DNA of 64,000 bases from Saprospiraceae bacterium (GCA_965223405.1 CBDCWO010000006.1:2904364-2968363), one strand, 5' to 3'; counted from the stretch's first letter, positions 37,720-53,361 are shown. Made by a program: numbers and translations. Notes: generated by a model from the sequence alone, not told the origin.

Positions 37720-38421
37720 TCAAATGTATCTTTCCCGCTTTTGTAAATTTATCAGAGCACCTAGGATAAAAACTACCGTTCCCACGCTTAAGAAAATCCG
37801 GCTTTTCCAAACGATTTGCTTCCAGGCCAGCTGACTGAATCCCCTGCGTGGGTCATAGGGATTTAAAAATACGTTCCAAAAAGTATCTTCCAGGAACTCA
37901 CTGAATATGGTCAATCCAACTCCGAGTATTACCATAACAACCGCCGTTGCATTACCATTTTTTATCCAGGTGGAAATCAAAAAAGCCAAACTACCCAGGA
38001 AGCAGATGGGAAACAACAATTGGATCGCTACTGAAACTGGATTTATTGGATACAACAACCAGGAACCAAGAGCAGCGAAAAGTATGAGTAAAATAAATAT
38101 TTGAGTAAATATCAGTACTAATCGAACCAGCCAAACTTTATAACGATAATCCGGAATACCAAAGTGGATTTCCAACATACGCGCATCCTCATCCCGTTGA
38201 ATCCCAAATACCACGGGATAAAAAATCAATAGAATGGCTGGAAAAAAAGTTAAAGAATAGATTGACCCAATATTGATTTCATCGTTTTCAAAAACACTTA
38301 TCACCATAAAAAATAGATAAAAAGCCAATGCGGCTACCAAAAACCAAAGAAAGCGTCCGGCAAAGATGACTTTCAAGTTATACTTGATCAAACTGCGGAT
38401 ATTTGTAATTGTATTGCGCAT
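37720..38421 (-). CDS. ABC-2-type permease-like 6-TM membrane protein, translationally coupled to the RND-ABC fusion gene
   Basis: 233-aa polytopic ORF. Its ATG overlaps the TAA of the upstream gene (TAATG at 38419-38423). Confidence 0.7.
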   Translation of the reverse strand: MRNTITNIRSLIKYNLKVIFAGRFLWFLVAALAFYLFFMVISVFENDEINIGSIYSLTFFPAILLIFYPVVFGIQRDEDARMLEIHFGIPDYRYKVWLVRLVLIFTQIFILLILFAALGSWLLYPINPVSVAIQLLFPICFLGSLAFLISTWIKNGNATAVVMVILGVGLTIFSEFLEDTFWNVFLNPYDPRRGFSQLAWKQIVWKSRIFLSVGTVVFILGALINLQKRERYI

Positions 38422-41400
38422 TAGTTTTTAATATTCTTTAATAAACACAAATAGGCATCCTCCAAAACGGGATCAACGGAAATGGCCGATTCCTGGGGTT
38501 TATGTAGGGAAATACATCGGACCCGTATGTGATCACCTTCACGCAGGTGATTAACTACAACCTCTTCTGATTCAACCGTGGCAAAGTCCACTGCCGGGAT
38601 GATATATTCCCAAACCAGTCCTTGCGCCAGACCAAGCATATCCTGTGGTGAACCCTGGTATTTTACAGCACCATGATCCAACACGGCCAATTGATTGCAA
38701 GAACTGGCGATATCTTCGATGATATGAGTAGAAAACAGGACAATCCGATCACGGCTTAATTGTACCAGGAGGTTTCTGAAACGAATACGTTCGCGAGGAT
38801 CCAATCCGGCTGTCGGTTCATCGACGATTAATATTCGAGGCAAATGAAGTAATATTTGAGCGATACCAATACGTTGTTTCATTCCACCGGAAAAGGAACC
38901 GATTTTTTCATGTTTGCGATCCAACATATTTACAGAATCCAACACATAGAGTAATCGTTCCTCCCTTTTATTGCGGTCATGCAATCCTTTGAGGATGGCT
39001 TGATAATCAAGAAAAGCCCAGGCCGTCATATTGTCATAACTTCCAAATGCCTGAGGTAGATACCCAATTAATCCCTGAAGTTCTTCACGTTTCTCCTGCG
39101 TATCAATACCATTGATCCAGATCTTGCCATAACTTTGTTCGAAGATTCCAGAGATGATACGCATTAAAGTTGATTTCCCGGCTCCATTGGGTCCTAGCAG
39201 CCCATACATGCCGGTACCAATATTCAATGACACGGTATCAAGGGCCTTAAATGGGATTTTACGTCTACCAAGCAGTGGGATGCTGATAATCGAGCGATAA
39301 TAAAATCGTCTCAGCTTTCCCTTTATCCTTTCAACCTTTAGCTGTTTACGGTAGAAATATGCCGACGATTTATAAACAATCAATACCAAATACCAAACTA
39401 AACCCCAAAAAATGGTATATCCCCATTCCTCCCATTTCTGATTCATTTGAAAAAGTAATACCAGCGGACTGGCCCAAAATAGGAGTTCTCCCAAAATCAT
39501 TGGGATCCATTTCTTTTTATCAGAATAAACTAAATTAAAGGCTAACTTGAACGGTTGCCATATTCCCAATAATAGAAGATAAATGCCTATTCCAATCAGG
39601 AGTATCCAAAAGCCATCCTGCAAATAAGAAAATGCAAACCATCCTAAAAAGATTAGAAGAGGAATTTTCCAAATAAACTCACTTAACAATGCACCCCAGC
39701 GAATCTTACCTTCTTCGGATTGAAGAACAAAAGATGGTGTTTTGCTGTTTGACCACTCTCTTGAAAACCGACCGGGTCGATTGTAAATCTTTACCAGGTT
39801 TTGGACCTTAATGTATAATGCTTCATCGGTAGAGATCAGCCTGGTCTGAGCACGTTTTAGACTCGCTAAAATAAAATATGTAATAGCCGGAATCAGGAAG
39901 ACCAATAACAGGATATCCAGCAATTGCCATAGAAATGAAGTTACTCTGAAATAGATCAGTAACCCTCCACAGACGAAAAGGATGACATTCAATATTTTTA
40001 TCCATAGAGATAAACCTCTAAACCAATTAATGGTATTTTCTAACCCCAAATAGACTGTGGGGATCACGATTAAAGTAAGTACTGTTCCCAAAGCCAAACC
40101 TCCAATCACAGTTATTGCAAAAGGTGCTCCAATTACACTGACATATTCTGCTGTACCCAACGCCAAGGGAAACATAGCGGCAATAGTAGTAATAGCTGTA
40201 ATCAGGATTGGGCGTAACCTATGAAGTCCAGCAGTGATTAATGCCCGGATTTTACGATAGCCCTTTCTCCTCAAAGCATTGACATAATCAATCATGATGA
40301 TGCCATTGTTGACAATAACACCCAAAAGGATTAAAAATCCGGTGAGGGTATTGGCGTTGAATAATCCATTTCCGGTGATTGTTAAGGCTAATAGTGACCC
40401 TGTAGCGGCTAGTGGCACGGAAAACATCAATACAAAAGGTGCTGACAAAGATTCAAACACTGAAGCCAGGATAATGAAAATAAGGAGAATGGCTGCTCCT
40501 GCCAGTGCTTTAAAATCTTTGATCTGATCCTGGGCTGCTTCCATTTCGATAGCAATTCCCGGAGGGACCGGGTAGTTTGAGATTAGCAACTTTATGCTTT
40601 CCTGGTGCGCTTCCAGAAGTTCTTTTGACTGATTGGCTTCTTGAGAGCGAGTGTAAGAAATCTGTATTTGTTTCTGTTGGTTGATACGCCTGATATCATC
40701 ATAACTTTCACCTGTACGGATAGCAGATAAGGTGGACATTTCATGAGCTCCACCTTCTTGATCAATAACTTCCAACTTTTTGAGATCTGACATGGTTTTG
40801 GGTTGGAATCCTGATTGAAGGTCTTCATTATCGCGTATGATAATATTGTATTCATCGTCAACATATCTGAACTTGGTGTCCGCAGGTGCCTCTTGTTCGA
40901 AATTTCTTAATGCGATAGCAATATTTTCCGGAGTGACTTTATTTCTGGCCAGGGTTAAGGGGTCAAAGGCCAGCAATACTTCAGGTCGGTTGCCACGAGT
41001 GCTAAGATTAGCATTCCGGGTATCGTCCAGGTTTTGGATATAATATAGAAGATCCTGGGCAACTCTCTGCAACAATCCATAGTCCTCTCCTTTCACGACA
41101 ATTTTTTCCTGATTTTCACCAAAACCCATTAGTTGTCCCAGAGCATCCAATCCACCTAGGCCTTGAGAACCCTCACCGGAATTACTGGAAGCAAAACTAA
41201 TTCGAGCACCTCCGATGCGGCGGGTGAGATCTTCAATTTCCGATTTGATATCATTATAGGATCGATTATCTATTTTTTCAAAATCTTCTTTAAGCTTAAT
41301 ATTTACGACAGCATCTTCCTCCTGGATACGACTGCTGATATCTTGTTTCTCGGCGAGACCCTCTAGTTTAGATTCAATTTCGAGGACAATCTTATCTGTT

Positions 41401-43112
41401 TTCTCGATGGTACTGCCTTTGGCCATGGTTACAAAGACATCGATCTGATCCCTTTCTACTTCTTCAAGAGTATTAATACTGATAGCCAGAACGGCAAATG
41501 TAGTGATGAAAAACAAAACTAATCCACCAAGAATAGTTCTTGCCGGATATCGCAAACTGCTTTTTAGTAATACCAGATAGATGCGGGATGTTCGGTTCAT
41601 TTCATTCCGGCGACCAAATAGTCCTTTTTGTCGCTTACCATAAAATCCCAAACCAAGTAAAGCCAATACCGGAATCAACAACAAAGCGACTAATAAAGAA
41701 ACCATCAATGTAGATATAATCGATACGCCAATGTGTTTTCCGATCAGAGCGACCAGATAATTTCCAAAAAACAGAAAAGGGATAAATACTGTAGCCGTAG
41801 TCAAGGTTGCGGCAAAAATGGCCTTGGCTACTCCTGATACGCCCACAGAGACCGCTTTATCTGTCCGGATACCTGTAGATACTTTACGGTAAATATTCTC
41901 CAATACGACTATGCTGTTATCAAGTAACATTCCTATCGCCAGAGCCATACCTACGAGGGTTAAACTATTGATGGTTATTCCAGCTCCATAAAACAAATTG
42001 AAAGCGGCGAAAACAGAAACCGGAATCGATAAGGCTATTACAGAAACTAAACGAAGATCTTTAAGGAAAATCCATAATACGAAAACGGCCAGCAAACCCC
42101 CGATCAGGGCAAGATCTATTATCTGCTGGATATTTTCCTCCATGGTATCTGCAAGATTATTTTGAATTACAATTTGTACATCCTTGGCATGCAATTGATC
42201 ATTTAGTTGATTGATTAACTCTTTACAGCGATGTGAAAGCTCGATGATATTGGCTTGTGAGGCTTTGGTGGCAGTAAGAGAAATGGCGTCCTTTCCGTTA
42301 ACCCGGCTAATAGATGTCTCCTTGTCTACTCCAAAAGATATTTTGGCAACATCCCTTAATAGGATTGGTCCCGGGGCCATAACGGTGTTTTCAATATCTT
42401 TTACTTGGGTATATTCGGAGGCCGTGCGTACAAAAAGTCTGCGGTTTCCTTCGTACACGAATCCCGCCAGCGTTCTACTTCCTGAGTTCTGCATTAGCCG
42501 CGAACGCACTTGATCCGGAGTAATTTTATGGGGCTCGCAAGCTTGCTTATCCAATAGGATTTCAAGGGTTTTCTGTTGTCCTCCAAAAATATTAAGTGAA
42601 GCAATTCCGTCCAGGTTTTCAAAGGCTGGTCTGATTTCTTTTTCCGATATATTACGTAATCGATCGGTTCCTCCGCTACCACGAATCTGTAGTTCCAAGA
42701 ATTGATTGGTCAGCTGTTGCACATCTATTTTTGAAACTCGAACCAGGATATCTGATGGCAACTGACTCTTAACCGCATCAATCTTTTGCTGTAGTTTCAA
42801 AAAGACATATTTGAACTTAATTGATTGATCAAAACTGACTTGGATAAAAGCCCTATTACCATTAATTCGGGTATCGATCTTTTCTACTCCCTCCATGGTT
42901 CCGATTACTCCTTCCACTGGTATCACCCCCTGTTGTTCCAGGTATTGAGGGCTGATTTGTCTGGGCGATCCCACCTGTATAAAGAGCATAGGGAGCTCAG
43001 CATTTGGAAGTAACTCCACCGGTAAATATCGATAGGAAATATAACCCAATAGGCTCAAGCCTATGAATATCATACAGATGGTTACTTTCCTATGGATGAA
43101 TGCTAACTTCAT
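38421..43112 (-). CDS. Fusion protein: complete RND (AcrB-type) permease, 2 TM helices, split ABC nucleotide-binding domain carrying a 4-TM insert
   Basis: Uninterrupted 1563 codons. The RND part is aa 1 to about 1030 (nt 43112 to about 40025; TM4 GMLLDNSIVVLENI, TM10 LLGVIVNNGIIMIDYV). The NBD beta-1 strand LYIKVQNLVKIYNRPG starts at aa 1098. The hydrophobic insert is aa about 1140-1250. The NBD core is aa 1286-1563 (nt 39257-38424) with GPNGAGKST, LPQ, FSGGMKQR, ILIVDEPTAGLD and FSTH. Confidence 0.85.
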   Translation of the reverse strand: MKLAFIHRKVTICMIFIGLSLLGYISYRYLPVELLPNAELPMLFIQVGSPRQISPQYLEQQGVIPVEGVIGTMEGVEKIDTRINGNRAFIQVSFDQSIKFKYVFLKLQQKIDAVKSQLPSDILVRVSKIDVQQLTNQFLELQIRGSGGTDRLRNISEKEIRPAFENLDGIASLNIFGGQQKTLEILLDKQACEPHKITPDQVRSRLMQNSGSRTLAGFVYEGNRRLFVRTASEYTQVKDIENTVMAPGPILLRDVAKISFGVDKETSISRVNGKDAISLTATKASQANIIELSHRCKELINQLNDQLHAKDVQIVIQNNLADTMEENIQQIIDLALIGGLLAVFVLWIFLKDLRLVSVIALSIPVSVFAAFNLFYGAGITINSLTLVGMALAIGMLLDNSIVVLENIYRKVSTGIRTDKAVSVGVSGVAKAIFAATLTTATVFIPFLFFGNYLVALIGKHIGVSIISTLMVSLLVALLLIPVLALLGLGFYGKRQKGLFGRRNEMNRTSRIYLVLLKSSLRYPARTILGGLVLFFITTFAVLAISINTLEEVERDQIDVFVTMAKGSTIEKTDKIVLEIESKLEGLAEKQDISSRIQEEDAVVNIKLKEDFEKIDNRSYNDIKSEIEDLTRRIGGARISFASSNSGEGSQGLGGLDALGQLMGFGENQEKIVVKGEDYGLLQRVAQDLLYYIQNLDDTRNANLSTRGNRPEVLLAFDPLTLARNKVTPENIAIALRNFEQEAPADTKFRYVDDEYNIIIRDNEDLQSGFQPKTMSDLKKLEVIDQEGGAHEMSTLSAIRTGESYDDIRRINQQKQIQISYTRSQEANQSKELLEAHQESIKLLISNYPVPPGIAIEMEAAQDQIKDFKALAGAAILLIFIILASVFESLSAPFVLMFSVPLAATGSLLALTITGNGLFNANTLTGFLILLGVIVNNGIIMIDYVNALRRKGYRKIRALITAGLHRLRPILITAITTIAAMFPLALGTAEYVSVIGAPFAITVIGGLALGTVLTLIVIPTVYLGLENTINWFRGLSLWIKILNVILFVCGGLLIYFRVTSFLWQLLDILLLVFLIPAITYFILASLKRAQTRLISTDEALYIKVQNLVKIYNRPGRFSREWSNSKTPSFVLQSEEGKIRWGALLSEFIWKIPLLIFLGWFAFSYLQDGFWILLIGIGIYLLLLGIWQPFKLAFNLVYSDKKKWIPMILGELLFWASPLVLLFQMNQKWEEWGYTIFWGLVWYLVLIVYKSSAYFYRKQLKVERIKGKLRRFYYRSIISIPLLGRRKIPFKALDTVSLNIGTGMYGLLGPNGAGKSTLMRIISGIFEQSYGKIWINGIDTQEKREELQGLIGYLPQAFGSYDNMTAWAFLDYQAILKGLHDRNKREERLLYVLDSVNMLDRKHEKIGSFSGGMKQRIGIAQILLHLPRILIVDEPTAGLDPRERIRFRNLLVQLSRDRIVLFSTHIIEDIASSCNQLAVLDHGAVKYQGSPQDMLGLAQGLVWEYIIPAVDFATVESEEVVVNHLREGDHIRVRCISLHKPQESAISVDPVLEDAYLCLLKNIKN

Positions 43113-43431
43113 TTAGGTGTTTACTATTTCCATTGTCATTGTCATTGTCATTTGTCCATTTTCTATATGTACTTTCATTCAAAATTCCACCCCCTGCCCC
43201 CTCAAGGGTCCCTCAAGGGGGACAAAATTCTTCCATTACCATTGTGATTGCTATTGTCATTGCTATTGCCATTTGCTTATCCAATCTCCATTCATACTTT
43301 CATTCAAAATTCCACATCACATTTCCATTTGTCATCAACTTTTTCAGAAATACGGATACAATTACTATTGTCATTTATTTCAAGCAGATTTTCATTTTCA
43401 TTTCTTTATCTACTCAACATTGAATTCAATT
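43113..43431. repeat. Structured repeat spacer between the two RND genes
   Basis: Two degenerate 125-bp direct repeats each contain a hexamer tract ((cattgt)n-like at 43130-43160 and 43231-43276) and an identical 20-mer actttcattcaaaattccac (43171-43190 and 43296-43315). An imperfect 25-nt palindrome ccccctcaagggtccctcaaggggg lies at 43197-43221. Confidence 0.8.
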
Positions 43432-46400
43432 TCATTTGTCATTATTATTGTTGCCTCCAAAATCGATTGCCGAATAAACACAAGGAATCACGACAAGAGT
43501 CAGAAGCGTGGAGGTCACTAATCCTCCGATTACTGCCCAAGCCATGGGTGCTCTGAGGGCTGCACTTTCTCCAAATCCAAAGGTGAGCGGTAATAAAGCG
43601 AGTATGGTTGTAATACTGGTCATTAGAATAGGTCGTATTCGCTGCTGACCCGCAAGTACAATCGCATTGTTTCGACTTAATCCTCCACGCTTCAATTGGT
43701 TGATTCGATCCACAAGAATAATGGCATCGTTAACAGCTATGCCTACCAGCATGATGATACCTATAATGGCCATAATATTCAATGGAGTATTTAGCCAATA
43801 AAATGTAAAAATAGTGCCGACGACTGCAAGAGGAATCGTAAATAATATGATGAAAGGATGCAAAAGAGACTCAAATTGAGAGGCCATAACCATATAGACC
43901 AGGACTATGGATAAAATGAGAGAAAAAGTCAGACTTTGAAGTGATTGCTGTCGACGTGCTTCGTCTCCCACTACCGAAATACTGTAATTCGGTGGTAAAC
44001 TTATCGTGCTGGTTCGTTCTCGAATCTGGTTGGCCACGAATTCCAATGGTACTTGTTTGTCGGTTTGAGCGTAAACTTTTCCAATTCTGGCTTGATTACG
44101 TCGATGGATTTCCCGTGGTGCAATCGATGGGTTTAAAGTTGCGATTTCATGAAGACGATATTCTTTATCACCACCGTTGATGGTGATATTTTTAAAATCA
44201 TCCAGACCAATATCTGGCATCATCAGATCGATATCGATCATTTCCCCGGACTGTTCGATTTTTCCAGCAGTTTTGCCCTGCAATTGATCCTGGATTTGGG
44301 CAATCACATTACTCATATCCAAATTATACAAACCAAGTTTCAAGCGATCAAATAGAACTTCTATTTCCGGAGCTCCTTGTTCGATGGAAGTGCGCACATT
44401 TTGCAGCTCAGGCATATCCATTAAGCTATTCCGGACAGCTTGAGTAAGATCTTCTATGATATCCAAATTATCTCCTTTTATTTCCACTACCAATGGAGAT
44501 TCTTCCATGCTTAGGATGCTATTCAAAGAGGATACTTCAGGAGAGAATGAAAACTTAACACCAGATATTCCCGCAGTGATTTCATCGAGTGCCGAAATTA
44601 CATTTTGAGTTCCTAACCGGGTGCTATCAGTCAATGCTACTTCAATAATAGCGGTATGCTCACCTTGAAATAAAGAGGATCGATCTCCTCCTTCCAATTC
44701 GGTCTTCGGACCAATATGGCTATACACAAATTTAAGATCTTCATCCAATGCCTGCTGGATTATCCCTTCTACGTTGCTAATGGTAGCGGCTGTTCTGGCC
44801 AGGACAGTTCCCTCCGGCATTTGAACATTTACGCGAAATTTTTTGGTGGTGGATCTCGGCATGAATTCAGTACCAATCGAAGAATATAAATAAAGGGCTC
44901 CGGCCATAAGCAAAGCAGCGAGGAAAATAATCGCCCATTTTATTCTAAGCATGCCCTGTAGAAAGCCACCATATCTGCGGAGTTGAAATGATTTTGCCTT
45001 GGCAGGAGCATTCCTTTTTCGGTAAAAACGATGATATAACATCGGAATCACAAAAATAGCGACAAAAAGAGATGACAATAGTGAAAAGGCCACCGTCCAG
45101 GCTTGATCTTTAAACAGCTCGCCAGCTGCATCTTGTAAATAGACTACTGGCAGAAAAACAATAATCGTAGTCAATGTGGATGCAGTAATAGCCCCCCCAA
45201 CTTCAGCTGTACCAGTAATGACTGCGGATTTGGTGTCTGCGCCGGATTCGTGATTACGAAAAATATTTTCCAGGACTACAATGGCATTATCAACCAACAT
45301 TCCGGCACCCAAAGCAAGGCCGCCAAGTGTCATGATATTAATGGTCAGACCATTGAAATACATCAGTGTGAACGTCGCAATGATGGAAATAGGAATGGCT
45401 ATACCAATGATCAACGTCGTTCCAAAACGGTGCAAAAAGATAAAAAGAACGATAATTGCTAAGAGAATTCCAATTAACGCCGTTTCCTGAACTTCATCAA
45501 CAGCCGTTTTAATAAATGTGCCCTGATTCGAAATGATTTCAAAATGATATCCTGGAAGTGCAGACTCAATCACATCAAATGCCTCACTAATTTCTTCAAC
45601 GGCTTTGACCGTATTAAACCGGTTTTCCTTAAATATAGATAATCCGATGCAGCGATGGCCGTTGATCCGAACGATGTTTTTAGGTTCTTTATTAGTAAAC
45701 TTTGTTTCAGCAATGTCTTGCAAATAAATTGGAGTTCTATTGATATCGGCTTCATTTTCCGGTACGTTCAGATTTTCAGCTGTGGCTTGATCATGCTCTG
45801 AGCTTTCATTATAACCGATAATTAAATTATTGAAATCAGTCTCTGTCTCCAGCATACCTACTCCTTTTACTGTGTATCTTAGACCTAGGTCTTCTACAGT
45901 CCCTCCGGAAACATTTTGGTTGAAACTTTGAATTTTTTGGGTGATGTCATCAACGGTCAACTTGAAGGCTTTCAATTTATGCAGATCTGGTTTAATCACA
46001 ACTTCATGTTCTTCTTGTCCGGAAAGCGTAACCTGGGCAACTCCTTCAAGTCGCATTAATTCATTGCTGATGTAATTTTGGCTTATCTTCCTGAGTTCAT
46101 TTAAATCTGTAATTGAGGAATGAGAAATCCCTACTAGCATGATGGGTGCACTATTGGGATCAAACTGAGTTACATTGACGCGATCCAGTTCTCCACTTTG
46201 ATTAAAATCGTTTATGGCCTTCTGTAAATCCAGAAATGCTTCATCCATATCCTTGTTCCAATTGTATTCGATAGTCAGCTGGGCTGATCCGATACGGGTC
46301 ACTGAGGCAACCTGGGTGACACCTTGTTGTCTCATGGATAAAGCCTCGATTTGTTCTACATACTGCTTTTCAATTTCCTCCGGAGCCTTTTCACCGGCAT

Positions 46401-46551: not shown

Positions 46552-47603
46552 CTCAATATTTTCACTTTGGACTTATTGCGTAGTGTTTCAAATCCCTTAA
46601 CAACCAGACGTTCGTTTTCTTCTAAACCACTGATTACTTCGATCTGATCTTCATTTTCGAGTCCGGTTGTAATCATACGTTCGAAGGCGGTGTTTTCCTG
46701 AACTACAAATACCCTTTTACCTCTCTGATCAGAAATAATCACTTCCTTGGGGATGGTGATGATGTCCTCTTTTTGATCGACTTTGATAAGTATTTTGACA
46801 AACATCCCGGGACGTATCAACAGTTTTGGATTGCTGAAGCGGACTCTGCCTAAATAGGTACGGGTATTGACGTCGATGGCTGGTGAAAGTTCAGTAATAG
46901 TTCCCGGTATGGTATCATTTGGTAAGCTGTAATTGGTGATTTGCACTTTCTGTCCTGGTTTTACTTCCATCATGGTATTTTCCGGCAGACTTACATCCAC
47001 ATACATGCGAGAATAATTCATGACTGTGACCAATGGATTGCCTTGTTGAATTATACTATTTTGCGTGTAGTGTGGAAGCTTCACTATGACGCCAGAAACC
47101 GGTATTTCAACCCGCATCTTCTCCAATCGTATCTGGGCATTTTCAAGGTCTTTCTTGGCATTTGTCAGCTGCAATTCCGAATTTCGTAATTCTCGCAAAG
47201 TAACCCCACCTTTGTCGAAAACAGATTTTTGTTTTTCATATTCCTGTTGTGCCAATTCAAGATTCATTTTCACTGACTCCAATCCAATGTTGTTTACATA
47301 TTCTTTATCTTCAATTTCGACAAAAGCTTGTCCGGCTTTGACCCAATCGCCTAATTTATATGGACGTTTTCGCGTTGGATGATTTTTTAGCTTGTATTTG
47401 CCATTAATTTGGGCCGTCAGTTCAATCTCTTTATCAGCCAGCGCATTTCCAGTAGCAATGGTATGCCGGGTTAAAGAACCGCTTTTTATTTCTACAACAG
47501 ATACAGGAGCGGCAATATCTATATTGGGGCTTTCCTCTTCGGTCTGGTTACAGGCGAGAAGGATTAGCAAAGCATAAATGAGGATATAATATTGTTTTTT
47601 CAC
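46548..47603 (-). CDS. Efflux RND periplasmic adaptor (membrane fusion protein), lipoprotein
   Basis: 351 aa with lipobox LLLAC. It has lipoyl/hairpin/beta-barrel architecture (coiled-coil ELAQQEYEKQK...LENAQIRLEKM). Confidence 0.85.
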   Translation of the reverse strand: MKKQYYILIYALLILLACNQTEEESPNIDIAAPVSVVEIKSGSLTRHTIATGNALADKEIELTAQINGKYKLKNHPTRKRPYKLGDWVKAGQAFVEIEDKEYVNNIGLESVKMNLELAQQEYEKQKSVFDKGGVTLRELRNSELQLTNAKKDLENAQIRLEKMRVEIPVSGVIVKLPHYTQNSIIQQGNPLVTVMNYSRMYVDVSLPENTMMEVKPGQKVQITNYSLPNDTIPGTITELSPAIDVNTRTYLGRVRFSNPKLLIRPGMFVKILIKVDQKEDIITIPKEVIISDQRGKRVFVVQENTAFERMITTGLENEDQIEVISGLEENERLVVKGFETLRNKSKVKILR

Positions 47604-47637
47604 AAGTTTAGTTTTAATTATTTATTTGTTGATACAA

Positions 47638-49149
47638 CTAGTTATCCGACGGAAGCGCTATTGACACGGGTTCATTTTTTTCCCAATCGAAGAGTGTGAG
47701 TATTTTTAAATCCAGTAATTGTGTTTTATAATTAATTAAGGCACGAGCGTAGTCAATTTTCTTGGTAGATAGCTGATTCTGAAATTGATTAAGATCAATT
47801 CCTGATAAATCACCATTGATATACCTTTCAAGATTGATTTCATACGTTCTTTGCGCATTTTCTACACTTTTTTTGGCAATTTCGATACGAGGCATTTGAG
47901 TTTGAATATTACGGTAGGAACGGCGGATATCCATTCGTATCTGTTTGCGATCTTCAGCCAGGTCCAACCGCTGTGATCGCATGGATACTTCCTGGGCTCG
48001 AATCCGGGCTTCTCGTTCACCCCAATCGAAAATTGGTATGTTAAATGAAATTCCGATACTGGGGTTATTGGTAGGCATATTATAAATCTTGCCAAACTGC
48101 TCATCGTCCCCAAATATCCCTAGGGTCAACTGAAGATCTGCTCTAAACTCATTTTGGGCTTTAGTTCTTTCCAGTTCGAAAAATGATTTTTCAATGTTAA
48201 TTTGTCTTTGTTGGAGTTCCATGCGGGATTTCAAAGCATATTCGATGGCTTTTTCCAAATCCACGACTACAGGTATTGCTTCTAAATCAGTAGATAGCTG
48301 AATCTGCTGATCAAGGTTCATTCCAATTTCTCTTTTGAATGATTCTTCGGCATTCGTCAAAGCCAGTTCGCTATCCTGAAGTGACAGCTGAGCATTGGCA
48401 AAATTGAGTTCGGCCTGGTACAACTCCTCCTGTGCCAGCAATCCTGCTTCAACTTTGTTTTTCACGATCTCAAAATTTTTAGAAGTATTCTCCAGTTCAT
48501 CTTTGGCAATATCCAGGTTCAATTGAGCAAGATAGACATCAAAAAACTGACTGGTAATCGTTTTCTCCAGTGTTAATCGCTGAATAGCGTATTCCAAGCT
48601 GGCATTCTGATAGTTTAATTCCAATTCCTCAAGTTGCATTTTTCTTCGATTGAAAGTAAAGATCGGTTGGTTAAAGGCCAGATATAAATTATTGTAAAAC
48701 GCTTTATTGGAATTCTCTCCGAAACCCACAATTTCAGATTTGTTATTGCGCCAGCTTAAATTGTTGATTAAAGCAATAGTGCCATCGGTTTTCAAGATGG
48801 GTTGTTCTACCCGGAAAGATCCGGAAGAAAATACTTCCTTATTAGTGAACCACTGAGAAAACTGATTATCAAAACTCCGGCGGTTACTGAAGTTGAATGG
48901 ATCCAGAGTTAGGGAAAACCGTGATTTCAAGGATGCCCTTTCAGCTTCCAAGCTGAATTGATATTGTTCGATATTAAAAAGAGAACGCTGAATTGAAGGA
49001 CTTCCTTGTTCCGCTATTTCCATGGCCGACTCCAGAGTCAGTAGAGTCTGGGTAGATCCCGGTTGTGCAAGCAAAAATACAAACAACAAGAATCCGTGGG
49101 ATACAACTGAAGGTGCAATTCTAAATATTTTTAAGTATTTCATAATCAT
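47638..49149 (-). CDS. TolC-like outer membrane efflux protein
   Basis: 503 aa with a signal peptide and two tandem repeats of the long helical OEP pattern. Its position in the efflux operon supports the call. Confidence 0.8.
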   Translation of the reverse strand: MIMKYLKIFRIAPSVVSHGFLLFVFLLAQPGSTQTLLTLESAMEIAEQGSPSIQRSLFNIEQYQFSLEAERASLKSRFSLTLDPFNFSNRRSFDNQFSQWFTNKEVFSSGSFRVEQPILKTDGTIALINNLSWRNNKSEIVGFGENSNKAFYNNLYLAFNQPIFTFNRRKMQLEELELNYQNASLEYAIQRLTLEKTITSQFFDVYLAQLNLDIAKDELENTSKNFEIVKNKVEAGLLAQEELYQAELNFANAQLSLQDSELALTNAEESFKREIGMNLDQQIQLSTDLEAIPVVVDLEKAIEYALKSRMELQQRQINIEKSFFELERTKAQNEFRADLQLTLGIFGDDEQFGKIYNMPTNNPSIGISFNIPIFDWGEREARIRAQEVSMRSQRLDLAEDRKQIRMDIRRSYRNIQTQMPRIEIAKKSVENAQRTYEINLERYINGDLSGIDLNQFQNQLSTKKIDYARALINYKTQLLDLKILTLFDWEKNEPVSIALPSDN

Positions 49150-49159
49150 AGATTTTGAT

Positions 49160-52100
49160 CTAATCCATTTTTACCAATTTAATTGCATCGGCAAAAATTG
49201 CTCTGAGTCTGGATTCATTACTTAATGTAATAGTAGCTGTATCTGCTGTAAAAACATAATCGCCAAGGGAGTTCCAACCACCCGGAGATTGGTGGGATAA
49301 TTCGATACTTGGACGGTCTATTCCATTCGCATGGGGTATCACAAATTGATAATTTCCTTTTTGACCGCGATTCCAATTGAATGAATCGTCTTTATACACA
49401 TGATAAAAGACATCATATCTTCCCGGTTCGGATATCGGAATATTCCATTTGGCTTCCTTGGAGCCATCCCCGGCTTTGATGTAGAAGGCGGATCTAATGA
49501 ATTCTCCAAAAAAGCGATCATTGGTCGTTGCCGTCCAATTGAGAGGTGCACGCCATACCATAGTACCCTGATACTTGAAATCATCGTCCACTTCCGCTTT
49601 CAACCATTTGCGAAGCCGGCTTACTTCTTCAAAATGGGTAAATTCGAAACTGGGATTTTCATTGTCAACAATGATCTCATTATCATTTACGATCACCAGG
49701 GGGTTAGCAACGATTTCCTGTTTTTCTACAGCATTGGTAACCTTAGTTTTGTTAATGACTTCAAAGGAATAGTCAATCTGGTTGGGTAGATTTCCCGAAG
49801 TAAGTGTATTAAAATGGATACCGGCCGGTTCAGTCAGTGATAAATAAAATGCTTCTTTAGTTTGCCCTGGCTCGAGATATATCAATTTTTCCTGGGTATC
49901 TCCTGGGCGAAGTTTGGATTTCACTACACCTCCCGTTGTCCCCAAGTTTGAAATCTTAAAGCGAACCCGGTTCATTTCTCGATTCCCCACCAACACCTTC
50001 TCGGCCACAGGAGTGCTAAATAGATATTGAGCCATATCGGTTTCGTTAAACCATTTGGTCATATGTTGGGATAAATCCACTCCAAATTCGGCGTAAATGT
50101 GTTTTTGGAACTCTGCAAATTTTAGATTTTTGAAACGATATTCTTGCAACAACTGGATTACATATTCTCGAAACCGGTCTGTTTTTGCAATGGCTTGAAT
50201 CATTGAAAAGAGCATCTCTCCCTTTAATTCTATAACATTGTCTATCAAAGATTGGTGTTCCGATAGATTTAGAATTTGGGCAAAGGATTTTTCCTGTAAA
50301 ACCATATTGGCCAATTCATTTTGGGTACTGCCGCTTGTCTGTCGCATCCAATCCCTGCCGCGATTGTTTTCGATTCGTAAATAAGACTCAAAGACACGAT
50401 TTAGAACTGGCCAATCTTTTGAATCCAGATTGTTACACATTTCATATAATTGACCAAATTGATAGTACGGATTTAAAGTTTCTTCTACCTGCGCCCTACC
50501 GGCATTAAAATTGGTGTTGATGTTTTTGAATCGGTAAAATTCTTCTAAGAATACATGGAGTACCTCGATTTGCAATTCCTCAGCAGTTTTATTTCGGCGG
50601 CGGTTCCACCTTTTGCGACGCTTGACGGATCCATTAAAATCCAAATTCCTGGTGTACAAGCCTTTTTCCGGTATCAATACTTGTCCGGGTTGGATTGTCT
50701 GATGAACTGAGGTCCAATTGCGATCATAGGTTTTGAATTGACCAGGAACCTCGATGATTGTAAATTTATCAAATGGGTATTTTAGCCCGGATTGCCGTTC
50801 AAAATCTCTTAACCTTTCTTCAATAATTGAAGGGAGGGTATCTCTTATATCCTGAAAGGCATTATTAAAATAGTCATGGCCATCGATGTAATAGAGTGAA
50901 AACTTCATGCTATCGGTATCCAAGGTGGTCCGTTTGTAATTTCCTATTGCTACTGACAGTTGAGGTAAACCATAGTCACGTTCAAAAAAATAAGTGTTTT
51001 CTTCCAGTTGTGTAGGATGACCTTGTGAAATCGGAATCAATCCGGGCAGAGTTTTTATGGTCAATTGGTAATTGACAAAATCCTTTCGATACCAGAATGG
51101 TGATGCATTACTATATCCGACTCCTGATTGGGGATACCATTGCGCTTCAGGTGTTAACAGTAGATATTGCGGATGGATAAATGCGTATCTACTCCCAATA
51201 TCAAATAAATAATTCTTCTTTTTTTCAGATTTAAGTTTTTCATCAATATCCAAATAGCAGGCATTTTCGTCAATTGTACCCTGATATTCTATGCGCAATT
51301 CGATTGAAGTTTCAATAGGCAAAATAGTATCAAATCGAACTATCAACAATTGTAATTTTCGCTCATATTCCAATTCCTTTGCTATTGATGAAACAGATAT
51401 GACTTTTAGTCCCGGATTTAAAGTAAAAACAAATTCGCTAGCCGCTGTCTCCGTATAACCTTTTATTCTTGAAACGGCCTTGTAATCGGACTCATTTTGT
51501 TCCAATCTAATTTCATGATCTTCAATATCAATTTGGGCATGCGAGATATAGCTATTATTCAGTGCAATCATTTCTGCCGATAAGACTTTGTGTTCCTGAT
51601 AATTCTTTAAATGCTGGTGGCCGAGGTAAAGAGCAGATCCAATTGCCAGGACACCCAACATAAAAGATGAGATATTTATTAATCTGGATTGGGGTAAACG
51701 ATTTGAAATGAGGATAGAAAAAAACATGAAACCTAAACCCAAACAAGTATACATTACCCGCAGACTCAATATCGTAGGCCAGTCTCCAAAACCGACTAAT
51801 TCCGAATGAAATAAAGGGAGATAAAAGGCCATATAATCAAAGAGGTAATTGTGGGATCCGCGTAAATAAATTAAGCTGGAAAGGATATAACCCAATAGCA
51901 GAACAAAAGTCAATGCCTGATTACGGATAACTCCCATTAAAAAGATAGACAATCCAACAATAAATGTTAACGTAGGAACAGAGATTAACAGTGGATAGTA
52001 CAAATAAGCCTGCCAATCGACGTAGGTATCCTTGGCTAGTAAATTAAAAACCAGCGCCATCAACAATGCCACCACGTTGATCAATAGAAATATGGACAAG

Positions 52101-52435
52101 ATGCTCCAAACTTTACCAAACAGATATGTGGCATTACTCATGGACCGAACATAAAAGACCTCGGTGGTGTCCTGTTTTCGGTCACGTTTTATAAATTCTG
52201 AAGACAAGAATACAGCAATAATTGCCTGTGCGACATTTAGGATAAATAGATTGGCATAAGGAAGATTTGCAGGGATTGCCCGATACACCCATTCCATATC
52301 ACCCACCTCAGAAATTTCACCCATATTGAATGCAAATAGTACAAATAGTGAGAGCACCGAGAAAATTCTAAAAAACCAACTCCGCATTAGAATTTTGCGC
52401 TCGTATTTTGCTATCGTTCTAAAAGTAAAGATCAT
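49160..52435 (-). CDS. ABC-2-type permease fused to a large M1-peptidase-like extracytoplasmic region and a C-terminal golvesin-like domain
   Basis: 1091 aa. About 280 N-terminal residues are polytopic. The central region resembles the permease/M1-aminopeptidase fusions of Bacteroidota, but there is no HExxH or GxMEN anywhere. The C-terminus GRYDVFYHVY...GGWNSLGDYVF...AIFADAIKLV fits the golvesin C-terminal pattern (tentative). Confidence 0.7.
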   Translation of the reverse strand: MIFTFRTIAKYERKILMRSWFFRIFSVLSLFVLFAFNMGEISEVGDMEWVYRAIPANLPYANLFILNVAQAIIAVFLSSEFIKRDRKQDTTEVFYVRSMSNATYLFGKVWSILSIFLLINVVALLMALVFNLLAKDTYVDWQAYLYYPLLISVPTLTFIVGLSIFLMGVIRNQALTFVLLLGYILSSLIYLRGSHNYLFDYMAFYLPLFHSELVGFGDWPTILSLRVMYTCLGLGFMFFSILISNRLPQSRLINISSFMLGVLAIGSALYLGHQHLKNYQEHKVLSAEMIALNNSYISHAQIDIEDHEIRLEQNESDYKAVSRIKGYTETAASEFVFTLNPGLKVISVSSIAKELEYERKLQLLIVRFDTILPIETSIELRIEYQGTIDENACYLDIDEKLKSEKKKNYLFDIGSRYAFIHPQYLLLTPEAQWYPQSGVGYSNASPFWYRKDFVNYQLTIKTLPGLIPISQGHPTQLEENTYFFERDYGLPQLSVAIGNYKRTTLDTDSMKFSLYYIDGHDYFNNAFQDIRDTLPSIIEERLRDFERQSGLKYPFDKFTIIEVPGQFKTYDRNWTSVHQTIQPGQVLIPEKGLYTRNLDFNGSVKRRKRWNRRRNKTAEELQIEVLHVFLEEFYRFKNINTNFNAGRAQVEETLNPYYQFGQLYEMCNNLDSKDWPVLNRVFESYLRIENNRGRDWMRQTSGSTQNELANMVLQEKSFAQILNLSEHQSLIDNVIELKGEMLFSMIQAIAKTDRFREYVIQLLQEYRFKNLKFAEFQKHIYAEFGVDLSQHMTKWFNETDMAQYLFSTPVAEKVLVGNREMNRVRFKISNLGTTGGVVKSKLRPGDTQEKLIYLEPGQTKEAFYLSLTEPAGIHFNTLTSGNLPNQIDYSFEVINKTKVTNAVEKQEIVANPLVIVNDNEIIVDNENPSFEFTHFEEVSRLRKWLKAEVDDDFKYQGTMVWRAPLNWTATTNDRFFGEFIRSAFYIKAGDGSKEAKWNIPISEPGRYDVFYHVYKDDSFNWNRGQKGNYQFVIPHANGIDRPSIELSHQSPGGWNSLGDYVFTADTATITLSNESRLRAIFADAIKLVKMD

Positions 52436-52455
52436 TACTATTCAAAATTCATTTA

Positions 52456-53361
52456 CTAACTGGTCAATATCGATTTGGAATTATTTTTAATGGTATGTTC
52501 AACAAAGTAGACATAGGCATGCTCTAAATTTGGGGGTATTGCTTCCGCATTATAACCACTTACATCATCACCGACCACAATGACCTTCCAACCATCCTTC
52601 ATCATCATGGTGGATACCACTTGAAATTTTTGATTAACGTCCATGTATTCCTGCTCCGATACATGAATAGACCATACATGGTTTTGGGCCTGTTGAATAA
52701 GTTTTTCCGGAGACCCTGAAAACGCTACCTTTCCCTTATTTAAAAGAGCCATATGCTCACAAGTGCTGGAAATATCCGCCACAATATGCGTCGAAAGGAT
52801 AATAATGACATCTTGTGAACTCAAGTGGGCTAACAGATTTCGAAATCGAATACGCTCTTCGGGATCCAGTCCGGTAGTAGGTTCATCTACTACGATTATT
52901 TTTGGATTATTAATTAAAGCTTGAGCGATACCAAGTCGTCGTTTCATACCACCTGATAACTTACCTGCTTTACGGCTTCTCACATCAAAAAGACCAACTT
53001 CTTCCAGCAAATGGTCTACGGCCTGAGTTCGTTCACGTTTGGTTTTCATGCCGGCCAGTCGAGCTGCATAATCCAAAAACTCATGAGTTTTCAAGTTGGA
53101 GAAAAAGCTAAAATCCTGAGGTAAGTACCCTAGCATGCTACGTACGTAATCTCGGTTTTCTGCAACATCTTTTCCGTTTACTAACACTTTGCCACTACTG
53201 GGTTTCATCAAAGTCACCAAAATTCGCATTAAACTGGATTTACCCGCACCATTTGGTCCAAGCAACCCGAACATACCTTCCTTAATTTCAAGATTAATAT
53301 CATGGAGGGCATGATTTCCGTTTGGATAAACTTTGTTCAAGCCTTGTATTGAGATATTCAT
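52456..53361 (-). CDS. ABC transporter ATP-binding protein (ABC-2/CcmA-like)
   Basis: 301 aa with GPNGAGKSS, LPQ, LSGGMKRR, IIVVDEPTTGLD and LSTH. It is clearly paralogous to the NBD fused to the RND protein. Confidence 0.9.
   Translation of the reverse strand: MNISIQGLNKVYPNGNHALHDINLEIKEGMFGLLGPNGAGKSSLMRILVTLMKPSSGKVLVNGKDVAENRDYVRSMLGYLPQDFSFFSNLKTHEFLDYAARLAGMKTKRERTQAVDHLLEEVGLFDVRSRKAGKLSGGMKRRLGIAQALINNPKIIVVDEPTTGLDPEERIRFRNLLAHLSSQDVIIILSTHIVADISSTCEHMALLNKGKVAFSGSPEKLIQQAQNHVWSIHVSEQEYMDVNQKFQVVSTMMMKDGWKVIVVGDDVSGYNAEAIPPNLEHAYVYFVEHTIKNNSKSILTS

What the first reader, a model, noticed from the sequence alone, without database searches (positions are those of the whole stretch)
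37720..53361. Seven-gene hybrid efflux locus: two ABC modules bracket a tripartite RND system with two RND paralogs
Gene order on the minus strand is: ABC ATPase, ABC-2 permease with a huge ectodomain, TolC-like OMF, adaptor, RND1, a 319-bp spacer, the RND2-NBD fusion, and an ABC-2 permease.

The spacers are 20, 10, 34, -4, 319 and -1 bp, with ATGA and TAATG overlaps, so this looks like one or two transcription units. The free ATPase and the fused NBD are clear paralogs. They share LGPNGAGKS.LMRI, GYLPQ.F, FLDY, ERIRFRNLL and an (L)E.AY C-terminus.

Two adjacent RND paralogs after one adaptor recall E. coli MdtABC, where MdtB and MdtC form a 2:1 heterotrimer. A trimer made of one RND1 and two RND2-NBD chains would carry exactly two NBDs. 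That would resolve the mismatch between trimeric RND pumps and dimeric ABC engines. This stoichiometry is my hypothesis, not an observation.

RND1 keeps one Asp in TM4 (VDNAIV) and one in TM10 (VNDAII). RND2 has only the TM4 Asp.
Basis: partly seen in the sequence, partly recalled or inferred. Interest (0 to 1): 0.75.

Follow-up and report, generated by a model that had tools for sequence, protein, structure and literature searches.

The report
Conserved RND–ABC fusion efflux operon
This is a seven-gene operon, conserved in hundreds of Bacteroidota species including gut Bacteroides, in which a proton-type (RND) efflux pump subunit is fused to an ATP-burning ABC engine and always travels with a second pump subunit, an adaptor, an outer-membrane channel and two ABC membrane modules; I found no paper describing this design.

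Summary

The 1563-aa RND–NBD fusion is real. It is full length in more than 120 protein clusters. The gene order NBD1–PermM1–OMF–MFP–RND1–RND2·NBD–Perm2 is kept in every sufficiently long related locus of 82, and at least 588 species genomes encode a relative.

New anatomy:
- After RND TM12 come two extra TM helices, then NBD strand β1, then a four-TM insertion, then the rest of a canonical NBD.
- This linker was found only in these fusions and in short, fragment-length entries.
- Perm2 has no Pfam hit but models as a type V (ABC-2) permease.
- PermM1 is an ABC-2 permease with a non-catalytic M1-like domain and a Golvesin_C domain.
- Both RND paralogs have lost the AcrB D408 and K940 equivalents. 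RND1's TM10 Asp is not conserved.

Best reading (inferred): one composite exporter in which ATP-driven ABC-2 modules are tethered to an MdtABC-like RND/adaptor/channel pump.

No literature on such a fusion was found. Novelty: a new variant of a known kind. Interest: 0.8.

The parts
52456..53361 (-). NBD1: free ABC ATPase of 301 aa (DrrA/GldA-like ABC-2 type) with a C-terminal domain of about 80 aa.
   Evidence: Pfam ABC_tran, E 3.6e-33. NCBIfam DrrA 206 bits and GldA 203 bits, both below cutoff. Walker A, signature, Walker B Glu and H-loop are invariant in 38 sequences. It is 42% identical to the fused NBD.
49160..52435 (-). PermM1: 1091-aa protein with an N-terminal ABC-2-type permease (about 7 TM), a large poorly conserved domain with M1-peptidase-like similarity but no zinc site, and a C-terminal Golvesin_C domain.
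   Evidence: Pfam hits. Among 38 sequences scanned: Golvesin_C in 38, ABC2_membrane_2 in 22 (best E 1e-9), Peptidase_M1 in 20. HEXXH occurs in only 1 of 59 sequences. Hydropathy and Lys/Arg counts place the C-terminal domain outside the cytoplasm; this placement is inferred.
47638..49149 (-). OMF: TolC-like outer-membrane factor, 503 aa.
   Evidence: Pfam OEP, two repeats, E 5.8e-44. TIGR01844 TolC family, 96 bits.
46548..47603 (-). MFP: periplasmic adaptor of 351 aa with a lipoprotein-type signal (LLAC).
   Evidence: TIGR01730 RND_mfp, 201 bits, above the cutoff of 94.9. N-terminus MKKQYYILIYALLILLACNQ.
43432..46551 (-). RND1: full-length HAE-1-like RND permease, 1039 aa. TM4 is D421-N422, TM10 is N941-(N/D)942, and TM11 has R971 and R973.
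   Evidence: ACR_tran 691 bits over profile positions 2-1020. Best solved relative is MdtB 9lyq, E 1e-83. Column counts in 73 sequences. Aligned with conventional RNDs.
43113..43431 (.). 319-bp RND1-RND2 spacer. It is built from an imperfect duplication of about 125 bp, hexamer repeats and one GC-rich repeat. It is uncommon and not a family feature.
   Evidence: In 80 related loci the estimated median gap is 33 bp, the 10th-90th percentile range is -4 to 139 bp, and 5 loci exceed 300 bp.
40023..43112 (-). RND2 domain of the fusion (aa 1-1030). TM4 is D398-N399, TM10 is N935-N936, and TM11 has R965 and R967.
   Evidence: ACR_tran 507 bits, residues 4-1022. Best solved relative is MdtB, E 3e-62. 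D398, N935, R965 and R967 are in 74 of 74 sequences and N936 in 73 of 74.
39858..40007 (-). TM13-TM14 hairpin (aa about 1036-1085) directly after RND TM12.
   Evidence: AlphaFold helices 17-37 and 41-66 in model numbering, pLDDT 83-92. Hydropathy peaks at 1033-1088.
39783..39812 (-). Displaced NBD strand β1 (aa 1101-1110, IKVQNLVKIY).
   Evidence: AlphaFold strand E82-91, pLDDT about 91. I1101, K1108 and Y1110 are invariant in 74 sequences. It resembles NBD1 residues 3-12 (ISIQGLNKVY), which lie N-terminal to where the local alignments with the fused NBD begin.
39348..39698 (-). Four-TM insertion (aa about 1139-1255) between β1 and the rest of the NBD.
   Evidence: AlphaFold helices 120-144, 148-176, 183-205 and 211-236. 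No solved ABC membrane domain aligns with it. The linker has only 77 hits among 1.84 billion representative proteins: 17 fusion-length proteins plus short, fragment-length entries.
38424..39257 (-). NBD2 core plus C-terminal β-domain (aa 1286-1563).
37720..38421 (-). Perm2: 233-aa six-TM type V (ABC-2) permease. Its start overlaps the stop of the fusion gene by 1 nt.

Best explanation
The seven genes form one operon encoding a single composite cell-envelope exporter.

Shown:
- The core is a tripartite RND pump: a TolC-like channel, a lipoprotein adaptor and two RND paralogs, laid out as in MdtABC.
- One RND paralog is covalently joined, through six extra TM helices, to a catalytically intact ABC-2-type ATPase.
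- A second, paralogous ATPase and two type V (ABC-2) permeases always accompany it. One of these permeases carries a large non-catalytic M1-like/Golvesin_C domain.

Inferred mechanism:
- The ABC-2 modules use ATP to extract or flip an amphipathic substrate out of the cytoplasm or the inner leaflet.
- Because the fusion anchors them against the RND membrane domain, they hand the substrate directly to the RND porter domains.
- The RND pump then expels it through the adaptor and the channel.
- This would be a hard-wired form of the known two-stage cooperation between inner-membrane transporters and RND pumps.
- I favour the ABC part being one heterodimeric unit per RND2 chain (NBD2 with NBD1, Perm2 with PermM1). 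In that case no match between the trimeric RND and the dimeric ABC engine is needed.
- The substrate is unknown.
For: - The fusion is real and old. More than 120 full-length clusters at 53-78% identity. At least 588 species genomes encode a relative. Named taxa include Saprospiraceae, Marinilabiliales, Bacteroides, Parabacteroides, Tannerella, Rikenellaceae, Cytophagia, Calditrichota and Krumholzibacteriia, and a cluster of 5082 sequences holds a member named B. thetaiotaomicron.
- The seven-gene order and strand are invariant in 82 loci. No further gene is conserved downstream: at most 7 of 74 loci share one. Intergenic gaps have estimated medians of 8-41 bp.
- Both NBDs keep all catalytic motifs. 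They are 42% identical and share a C-terminal domain.
- Perm2 has the type V permease fold. PermM1 carries ABC2_membrane_2 in 22 of 38 sequences. The conserved TM2-TM3 loops of the two permeases align in register.
- The NBD is held at the membrane by a family-specific 2+4 TM element with high model confidence. This element was found only in the fusions and in short, fragment-length entries.
- The RND parts are full-length HAE-1-like pumps with an RND-type adaptor and an OMF.
- Established knowledge, from memory: RND pumps capture substrates from the periplasm or outer leaflet and cooperate with single-component inner-membrane pumps. Type V ABC exporters handle lipid-linked or amphipathic cargo, or act as mechanotransducers as NosDFY does.
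Against: - No experiment, and no multimer model or coordinate inspection, supports any physical contact beyond the covalent fusion.
- Heterodimer versus two homodimers is undecided. Both NBDs have fully consensus sites, with no degenerate site of the kind common in heterodimers.
- The Perm2-PermM1 profile match is not significant (E 0.089).
- The PmtABCD operon, which also has two NBDs and two permeases, gave a PmtCD complex on its own (PDB 6xjh, seen).
- Both RNDs lack the D408 and K940 equivalents, so ordinary proton-driven RND function cannot be assumed.
- No substrate clue comes from the neighbouring genes.
Confidence: 0.45

Rival explanations
1. ATP-powered or ATP-gated RND pump. ATP binding and hydrolysis by the fused NBD, paired with NBD1 or with another NBD2, is transmitted through TM13-18 into the RND2 membrane domain. 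It drives or licenses the RND transport cycle, replacing or supplementing the proton relay. Perm2 and PermM1 serve as the ABC membrane scaffold rather than as a separate substrate pathway.
For: - Both RND paralogs have lost two of the four canonical relay residues: D408 to N and K940 to N. Conventional RND pumps a few kb away in the same genomes keep DD, KN and R.
- These changes are family-wide.
- The NBD is wired into the membrane next to the RND by a unique, conserved 6-TM element. Four of these helices are inserted inside the NBD fold, which looks more like a force-transmitting element than a flexible tether.
- The NBD is the most conserved part of the protein: per-position conservation is about 0.9 across aa 1281-1480, except 0.79 at aa 1361-1400.
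- There is a precedent for ABC-2 systems acting as mechanotransducers: NosDFY, the best structural match of Perm2 and NBD2.
Against: - The TM4 Asp and TM11 Arg are invariant in both paralogs. A minimal Asp/Arg relay could still couple protons, as SecDF does (from memory).
- Two dedicated ABC-2 permeases are more simply explained as a transport pathway of their own.
- No structural evidence of contact between TM13-18 and the RND core could be obtained, because the tools return no coordinates or PAE.
Confidence: 0.2
2. The RND trimer is 1 RND1: 2 RND2-NBD, so exactly two fused NBDs dimerise under one trimer and work with two Perm2. NBD1 and PermM1 form a separate homodimeric ABC transporter.
For: - Two RND paralogs follow one adaptor gene, as in MdtABC. 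MdtB is the best solved sequence relative of both.
- RND1 and RND2 always co-occur.
- HAE-1 heterotrimers exist: MdtBC (review PMC8277102).
- The PmtCD homodimeric structure shows that operons with two NBDs and two permeases can yield separate homodimers.
Against: - Nothing in the sequence fixes a stoichiometry.
- RND1 and RND2 are only 27% identical.
- The model needs the two NBD2 plus 12 extra TM helices plus two Perm2 to converge at one RND2-RND2 interface.
- NBD1 is the paralog of NBD2, so it is an equally plausible dimer partner.
Confidence: 0.2
3. Co-located but functionally independent transporters. An ordinary RND pump and two ordinary ABC-2 transporters merely share an operon, and the fusion is an incidental gene merger without mechanistic meaning.
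For: - Each component belongs to a known class.
- Efflux genes often cluster together.
Against: - The order of all seven genes is invariant in 82 loci spanning several phyla.
- The fusion is always full length, and no clearly unfused form was found in 1.84 billion representative proteins; the one 526-aa candidate is unresolved.
- The linker carries invariant residues.
- There is a peculiar 4-TM insertion inside the NBD.
Confidence: 0.05
4. Assembly or annotation artefact: a frameshift or missed stop falsely joins an RND gene to an ABC gene.
For: None found.
Against: - The same 1550-1577-aa reading frame appears in more than 120 independent clusters and in 72 of the genome loci.
- The 1036-aa members of one cluster turned out to be the neighbouring RND1, not truncated fusions.
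Confidence: 0.01

Closest known systems
MdtABC-TolC / MuxABC-OpmB (heteromultimeric HAE-1 RND pumps)
   Same: One adaptor gene is followed by two adjacent full-length RND paralog genes. An OMF partner is present. MdtB is the best solved sequence relative of both RND1 and RND2.
   Different: - The RNDs score far below the MdtB and MdtC equivalog cutoffs.
- The paralogs are only 27% identical.
- Both lack the D408 and K940 equivalents.
- One is fused to 6 TM helices plus an NBD.
- Two ABC-2 modules are obligatory partners.
- The OMF is encoded in the operon.
MacAB-TolC and DevBCA-TolC (ABC-driven tripartite efflux pumps, type VII ABC)
   Same: An ATPase, an adaptor and a TolC-like channel work in one envelope-spanning system. 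The NBD is fused to membrane helices.
   Different: - There is no FtsX/MacB-type permease and no periplasmic domain between TM1 and TM2.
- Here the permeases have the type V (ABC-2) fold.
- The 4 TM helices are inserted inside the NBD, not appended to it.
- A complete RND pump is also present.
NosDFY, PmtCD, Wzm-Wzt/KpsMT, ABCG/ABCA (type V ABC-2 systems)
   Same: Perm2's fold matches NosY, PmtD, ABCG2, KpsM and Wzm. NBD2 with its C-terminal domain matches TM_1403 and NosF, and by Foldseek the ABCA NBDs. PermM1, like NosY with NosD, couples a permease to a large extracytoplasmic domain.
   Different: - None of these is fused to, or genetically locked with, an RND pump.
- None has β1 separated from the NBD by TM helices.
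- The M1-like/Golvesin_C ectodomain is not found in them.
Functional cooperation of single-component inner-membrane pumps with AcrAB-TolC (two-stage efflux)
   Same: The logic is the same: one transporter moves substrate out of the cytoplasm or inner leaflet, and an RND pump takes it across the outer membrane. This comparison is from memory and was not tested here.
   Different: In the known cases the partners are separate, unlinked proteins with no fixed stoichiometry. Here they are covalently and genetically coupled.
GldAFG gliding-motility ABC transporter of Bacteroidota
   Same: It is an ABC-2-type ATPase of the same phylum. GldA is among the best NCBIfam matches of both NBDs.
   Different: Scores are about half the GldA cutoff: 203 and 166 bits against 402.6. 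There is no GldF or GldG equivalent, and the gene context differs.

Membership tests
Tripartite RND (HAE-1-like) efflux system | RND permease of about 1000 aa with 12 TM helices and two large periplasmic loops (ACR_tran). | tested here: met
   RND1 scores 691 bits over profile positions 2-1020. RND2 scores 507 bits over positions 4-1018.
Tripartite RND (HAE-1-like) efflux system | A cognate periplasmic adaptor and an outer-membrane factor. | tested here: met
   TIGR01730 RND_mfp scores 201 bits, above the cutoff of 94.9. OEP has two repeats, E 5.8e-44.
Tripartite RND (HAE-1-like) efflux system | The canonical proton-relay tetrad: AcrB D407 and D408 (TM4), K940 (TM10) and R971 (TM11). | tested here: not met
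   Only the D407 and R971 equivalents are kept. The D408 position is N in both paralogs and the K940 position is N in both. Conventional RNDs in the same genomes have DD, KN and R. The AcrB residue numbering is from memory.
Tripartite RND (HAE-1-like) efflux system | Trimeric assembly. | not testable with these tools
   No multimer prediction is available.
MdtABC/MuxABC heterotrimeric RND | Two adjacent RND paralog genes downstream of one adaptor gene. | tested here: met
MdtABC/MuxABC heterotrimeric RND | Orthology to MdtB and MdtC (NCBIfam equivalog cutoffs). | tested here: not met
   RND1 scores 377 bits against MdtC (cutoff 1774) and 332 bits against MdtB (cutoff 1584). RND2 scores 252 and 237 bits.
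MdtABC/MuxABC heterotrimeric RND | Mixed trimer of fixed stoichiometry. | not testable with these tools
   This needs native MS, cryo-EM or a multimer model.
Type V (ABC-2) ABC transporter | An NBD with Walker A, Q-loop, signature, Walker B Glu and H-loop. | tested here: met
   The catalytic residues are unvaried in 74 fused NBD sequences (apart from one alignment gap) and in 38 NBD1 sequences; flanking motif positions vary conservatively.
Type V (ABC-2) ABC transporter | A six-TM permease with the ABC-2/type V fold. | tested here: met
Type V (ABC-2) ABC transporter | The PermM1 N-terminal domain is an ABC-2 permease. | tested here: inconclusive
   The window protein scores 21.2 bits, below the gathering score of 27.2. 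22 of 38 sequences match at E < 0.01, best 1e-9. No structure was predicted.
Type VII ABC (MacB/FtsX) tripartite pump | A four-TM FtsX-type permease with a periplasmic domain between TM1 and TM2. | tested here: not met
   No FtsX or MacB_PCD hit in any of the seven proteins. The loops of the 4-TM insertion are short.
M1 zinc aminopeptidase | The HEXXH(X18)E zinc-binding site. | tested here: not met
   HEXXH is absent from the window protein. It occurs in 1 of 59 sequences, at an unrelated position. The Pfam match is partial (profile positions 134-218) and below cutoff.
GldA gliding-motility ATPase | The NCBIfam TIGR03522 equivalog cutoff of 402.6 bits. | tested here: not met
   NBD1 scores 202.9 bits and the fused NBD 165.9 bits.

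The most novel reading that the evidence does not exclude
The fused, membrane-inserted NBD, with its paralog NBD1, supplies or gates the energy of an RND pump whose classical proton relay has been half dismantled in both paralogs. This would be the first ATP-coupled RND transporter, and a natural chimera of the two main energy-coupling principles of bacterial efflux.
Probability: 0.2. Interest if true: 0.95.

Novelty: new variant of a known kind. Interest (0 to 1): 0.8.

Why it matters
Tripartite efflux pumps are textbook-classified by their inner-membrane engine: RND (proton-driven, trimeric), ABC (ATP-driven, dimeric) or MFS. This locus shows that nature has welded an RND subunit to an ABC engine and kept the design, with five fixed partners, across at least 588 species genomes. 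A cluster of 5082 sequences holds a member named B. thetaiotaomicron, a genetically tractable species.

- If the modules merely cooperate, this is the first hard-wired two-stage exporter and a tool for studying substrate hand-over.
- If ATP drives the RND cycle, it changes how RND energetics is understood.
- In either case the trimer-versus-dimer symmetry problem becomes directly testable.

Public annotation gives no hint of the system. The fusion is mostly named 'efflux RND transporter permease subunit', in some records only for its ABC domain or as hypothetical. Every name listed for Perm2 is 'hypothetical protein'. The system is therefore invisible to resistome and transporter surveys.

Tried and rejected
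I solved this by aligning the truncated window sequence with full-length hit ids.
- hhalign of the linker against Perm2 and PermM1 found nothing. Perm2 against PermM1 gave E 0.089, which is suggestive but not significant.
- The search for unfused forms of the linker found only fragment-length entries and one 526-aa protein (P0268) that may be a fragment. The apparent 1036-aa 'truncated fusions' in a cluster are RND1.
- The sigma-70 promoter and terminator scan gave 44 promoter-like sites against 51.6 expected and 22 terminator-like sites against 14.0 expected (sd 3.6), with none placed informatively, and this promoter model does not cover Bacteroidota.
- A downstream neighbourhood survey for substrate clues found nothing conserved.
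- The organism could not be identified. The closest named relative is Flavilitoribacter nigricans at 75% identity.
- Nine literature searches and one full-text look-up in the 2021 Chem Rev review found no description of an RND-ABC fusion. One further query was rejected for syntax.
- I rejected GldAFG, MacB-type and catalytic M1 peptidase assignments.

Full report
**1. The observation**

They are:
- 52456-53361 (301 aa)
- 49160-52435 (1091 aa)
- 47638-49149 (503 aa)
- 46548-47603 (351 aa)
- 43432-46551 (1039 aa)
- 38421-43112 (1563 aa)
- 37720-38421 (233 aa)

The spacers computed from these coordinates are 20, 10, 34, -4, 319 and -1 bp, as stated.

Pfam and NCBIfam give the following, in gene order:
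- an ABC ATPase;
- a protein with weak ABC2_membrane_2 and Peptidase_M1 matches and a clear Golvesin_C domain;
- a TolC-like OMF;
- an RND-type adaptor, above the TIGR01730 cutoff;
- a full-length ACR_tran permease (691 bits);
- a protein with ACR_tran at residues 4-1022 (507 bits) and ABC_tran at 1292-1435;
- a protein with no hit.

The two ATPase domains are 42% identical over 276 residues. The two RND parts are 27% identical over their full length.

**2. The fusion is real and the locus is one conserved unit**

A search of 5.8 billion proteins returned more than 120 clusters of 1548-1577 aa that cover 99-100% of the fusion at 53-78% identity.

The named taxa include:
- Saprospiraceae (Flavilitoribacter nigricans at 75% identity is the closest named relative)
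- Prolixibacteraceae and other Marinilabiliales
- Bacteroides, Parabacteroides, Tannerella, Rikenellaceae and Odoribacter
- Cytophagia (Marivirga, Imperialibacter, Ohtaekwangia)
- Calditrichota and Krumholzibacteriia

I ran tblastn with the seven window proteins against the 82 loci fetched by then. The order NBD1-PermM1-OMF-MFP-RND1-RND2·NBD-Perm2 appears on one strand in every locus whose contig is long enough, without exception. A further locus fetched later, L083, shows the same order. No additional gene is conserved downstream: at most 7 of 74 loci share one.

Intergenic distances have estimated medians of 8-41 bp. The RND1-RND2 gap has an estimated median of about 33 bp, and only 5 of 80 loci exceed 300 bp. 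The 319-bp spacer in this window is therefore uncommon. It consists of an imperfect duplication of about 125 bp, hexamer repeats and a GC-rich repeat.

In gut Bacteroides the fusion sits in very large clusters. One has 2426 member sequences. Another has 5082 and contains a member named B. thetaiotaomicron.

**3. Anatomy of the fusion**

Across homologs the NBD is the best-conserved part of the protein, with per-position conservation of about 0.9 for most of aa 1281-1480. The catalytic residues of Walker A, Q-loop, signature, Walker B and H-loop are unvaried in 74 sequences apart from one alignment gap; a few flanking positions vary conservatively.

The 260-residue 'linker' is not a passive tether. 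It contains a conserved stretch, I-x-(I/V)-x-N-L-V-K-I-Y-x-R..RF.REW at aa 1101-1120. This resembles the first β-strand of NBD1, ISIQGLNKVY. It also lies outside the region where alignment with NBD1 begins, at aa 1286.

An AlphaFold2 model of aa 1020-1563 was built from 82 sequences (mean pLDDT 82.1, pTM 0.70). After the end of RND TM12 it shows, in order:
- two TM helices;
- a confident β-strand at aa 1101-1110 (pLDDT about 91);
- two short helices;
- four long TM helices (aa about 1139-1255);
- an amphipathic helix;
- the remainder of a normal NBD with a C-terminal β-domain.

So the NBD carries a four-TM insertion in its β1-β2 connection, and the protein has 18 TM helices in all. That β1 pairs with the NBD sheet is inferred from the confidence values, because the tools do not return coordinates.

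A full HMMER scan of 1.84 billion representative proteins with the linker alone found only 77 hits. Seventeen are 1550-1577-aa fusions, all but one with the match starting at about residue 1030. The rest are shorter entries that look like fragments. One 526-aa protein could be an unfused form or a fragment. I found no free-standing counterpart of the linker.

**4. The other components**

Perm2's most conserved segment is the TM2-TM3 cytoplasmic loop (FGIQRDEDARMLEIHFGIPDYRYKVW), which is probably the coupling helix. It aligns in register with the equally conserved loop of PermM1 (FIKRDRKQDTTEVFYVRSMSNATYLFGKVW). The profile-profile E-value, however, is only 0.089. Paralogy of the two permeases is likely but not shown.

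*PermM1.* Among 38 sequences scanned, all carry Golvesin_C, 22 match ABC2_membrane_2 and 20 match Peptidase_M1. The HEXXH zinc site is absent: it occurs in 1 of 59 sequences, at an unrelated position. Hydropathy suggests seven TM helices with the C-terminal domain of about 820 residues outside the cytoplasm (inferred).

*Adaptor.* It has a lipoprotein signal.

**5. The RND proton relay**

Across 73 RND1 sequences the TM10 position is N in 39, D in 33 and S in 1, so that Asp is not conserved.

What is conserved, in both paralogs:
- TM4 Asp-Asn. D421 is in 73 of 73 RND1 sequences; D398 is in 74 of 74 RND2 sequences.
- TM10 Asn at the position of AcrB K940.
- The TM11 Arg pair.

Conventional RND pumps encoded a few kb away in three of the same genomes have the canonical VDDAIV, KN(A/G)I and R.RP motifs in the same alignment columns.

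Both RNDs of this system have therefore lost the D408 and K940 equivalents family-wide, while keeping the D407 and R971 equivalents. AcrB numbering, and the essentiality of these four residues, are from my knowledge of the AcrB and MexB literature. This fits either a minimal Asp/Arg relay or altered energy coupling. It does not decide between them.

**6. How it most likely works**

*Shown.* This is a self-contained operon for an OMF, an adaptor, two HAE-1-like RND paralogs, two catalytically intact paralogous ABC-2 ATPases (one fused to RND2 through a family-specific 6-TM element) and two ABC-2-type permeases.

*Inferred (confidence about 0.45).* These form one machine. The ATP-driven type V modules take an amphipathic substrate from the cytoplasm or the inner leaflet. 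Because they are anchored to the RND membrane domain, they deliver it to the RND porter, which expels it through the adaptor and the channel. This would be a hard-wired version of the known cooperation between inner-membrane transporters and RND pumps.

I favour a heterodimeric ABC unit per RND2 chain: NBD2 with NBD1, and Perm2 with PermM1. My reasons:
- The two ATPases are paralogs with a shared C-terminal domain.
- The two permeases have matching coupling loops.
- All four parts always co-occur.
- This arrangement needs no match between threefold and twofold symmetry.

Against it:
- Both ATP sites are consensus, whereas heterodimers often have one degenerate site.
- The Pmt system, which also has two NBDs and two permeases, gave a PmtCD complex on its own (6xjh).

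*Rivals.*
- An ATP-powered or ATP-gated RND (0.2). This is supported by the half-dismantled relay and by the intimate membrane wiring of the NBD.
It is neither supported nor excluded.
- Independent co-located transporters (0.05).
- An artefact (0.01; refuted).

The substrate is unknown. The non-catalytic M1-like and Golvesin_C domains hint at peptide or glycan recognition, but this is speculation.

**7. Comparison with known systems and novelty**

The closest relatives by design are:
- MdtABC/MuxABC: two RND paralogs after one adaptor.
- MacAB-TolC: an ATP-driven tripartite pump.
- Type V ABC systems such as NosDFY, PmtCD and Wzm-Wzt.

The locus fails the equivalog cutoffs for MdtB, MdtC and GldA. 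It has no MacB/FtsX permease. It lacks the M1 zinc site and half of the canonical RND relay.

Nine literature searches plus a look-up in the comprehensive 2021 review of tripartite systems found no description of an RND-ABC fusion. The review states that HAE-1 pumps are homotrimers and rarely heterotrimers such as MdtBC. The library lacks most subscription journals and transporter databases, so an uncharacterised database entry cannot be excluded.

Public annotation names the fusion 'efflux RND transporter permease subunit', 'ATP-binding cassette domain-containing protein' or 'AcrB/ABC-type ATPase'.

I rate it a new variant of a known kind. It would be categorically new if ATP drives the RND cycle. 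Interest is 0.8.

Noticed in passing
window 43113-43431: The RND1-RND2 spacer is built from an imperfect duplication of about 125 bp (43126-43190 and 43235-43315), CATTGT-type hexamer repeats and a unique GC-rich tandem repeat, CCCCTTGAGGGACCCTTGAGGGGG. Five of 80 relatives, including the closest named one (L032, about 542 bp), also have long spacers at this junction. The junction may be a hotspot, or it may hold an internal promoter.
   Followed up: partly
window 55733-56557 (-), 54516-55502 (+), 53552-54331 (-): Upstream of the operon lie an IS-type DDE transposase, a 328-aa protein with an OmpR-type winged-helix C-terminal domain (a possible regulator), and a 259-aa secreted or anchored protein. 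By eye the last has a TonB_C-like C-terminus (KYPGGVQQLRHYL...), but it has no Pfam hit.
   Followed up: partly
P0268 (526 aa): This protein consists only of the TM13-18 linker plus the NBD and starts with Met at the position of TM13. It could be a rare unfused form of the C-terminal module or a mis-called fragment. Its genomic context was not examined.
   Followed up: no
L034, L041, L045 (between MFP and RND1); L078 (several junctions): A few lineages carry insertions of about 0.6-1.3 kb between the adaptor and RND1 genes, or several enlarged spacers, while keeping the gene order. The content of these insertions was not examined.
   Followed up: no
cluster of P0346 and L083: A 90%-identity cluster of the fusion, with 5082 members including one named B. 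thetaiotaomicron, also lists 1036-aa members. For the one checked, that protein is the neighbouring RND1 gene and not a truncated fusion. This is an oddity of the clustering. L083 is a frameshift-ridden assembly in which NBD1 and PermM1 are split into pieces.
   Followed up: yes
L020 18072-22355; L044 and L071 about 19.3-24 kb: Several genomes encode a conventional RND system (adaptor plus RND, with the canonical DD/K/R relay) only 3-5 kb downstream of the hybrid operon. These served as an internal control for the relay comparison.
   Followed up: yes
window 38421-43112 and 37720-38421; homologs: Database names hide the architecture. NCBI mostly calls the fusion 'efflux RND transporter permease subunit', in some records 'ATP-binding cassette domain-containing protein' or hypothetical. 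Every name listed for Perm2 is 'hypothetical protein'. Domain-based surveys of efflux systems would miscount this system.
   Followed up: yes
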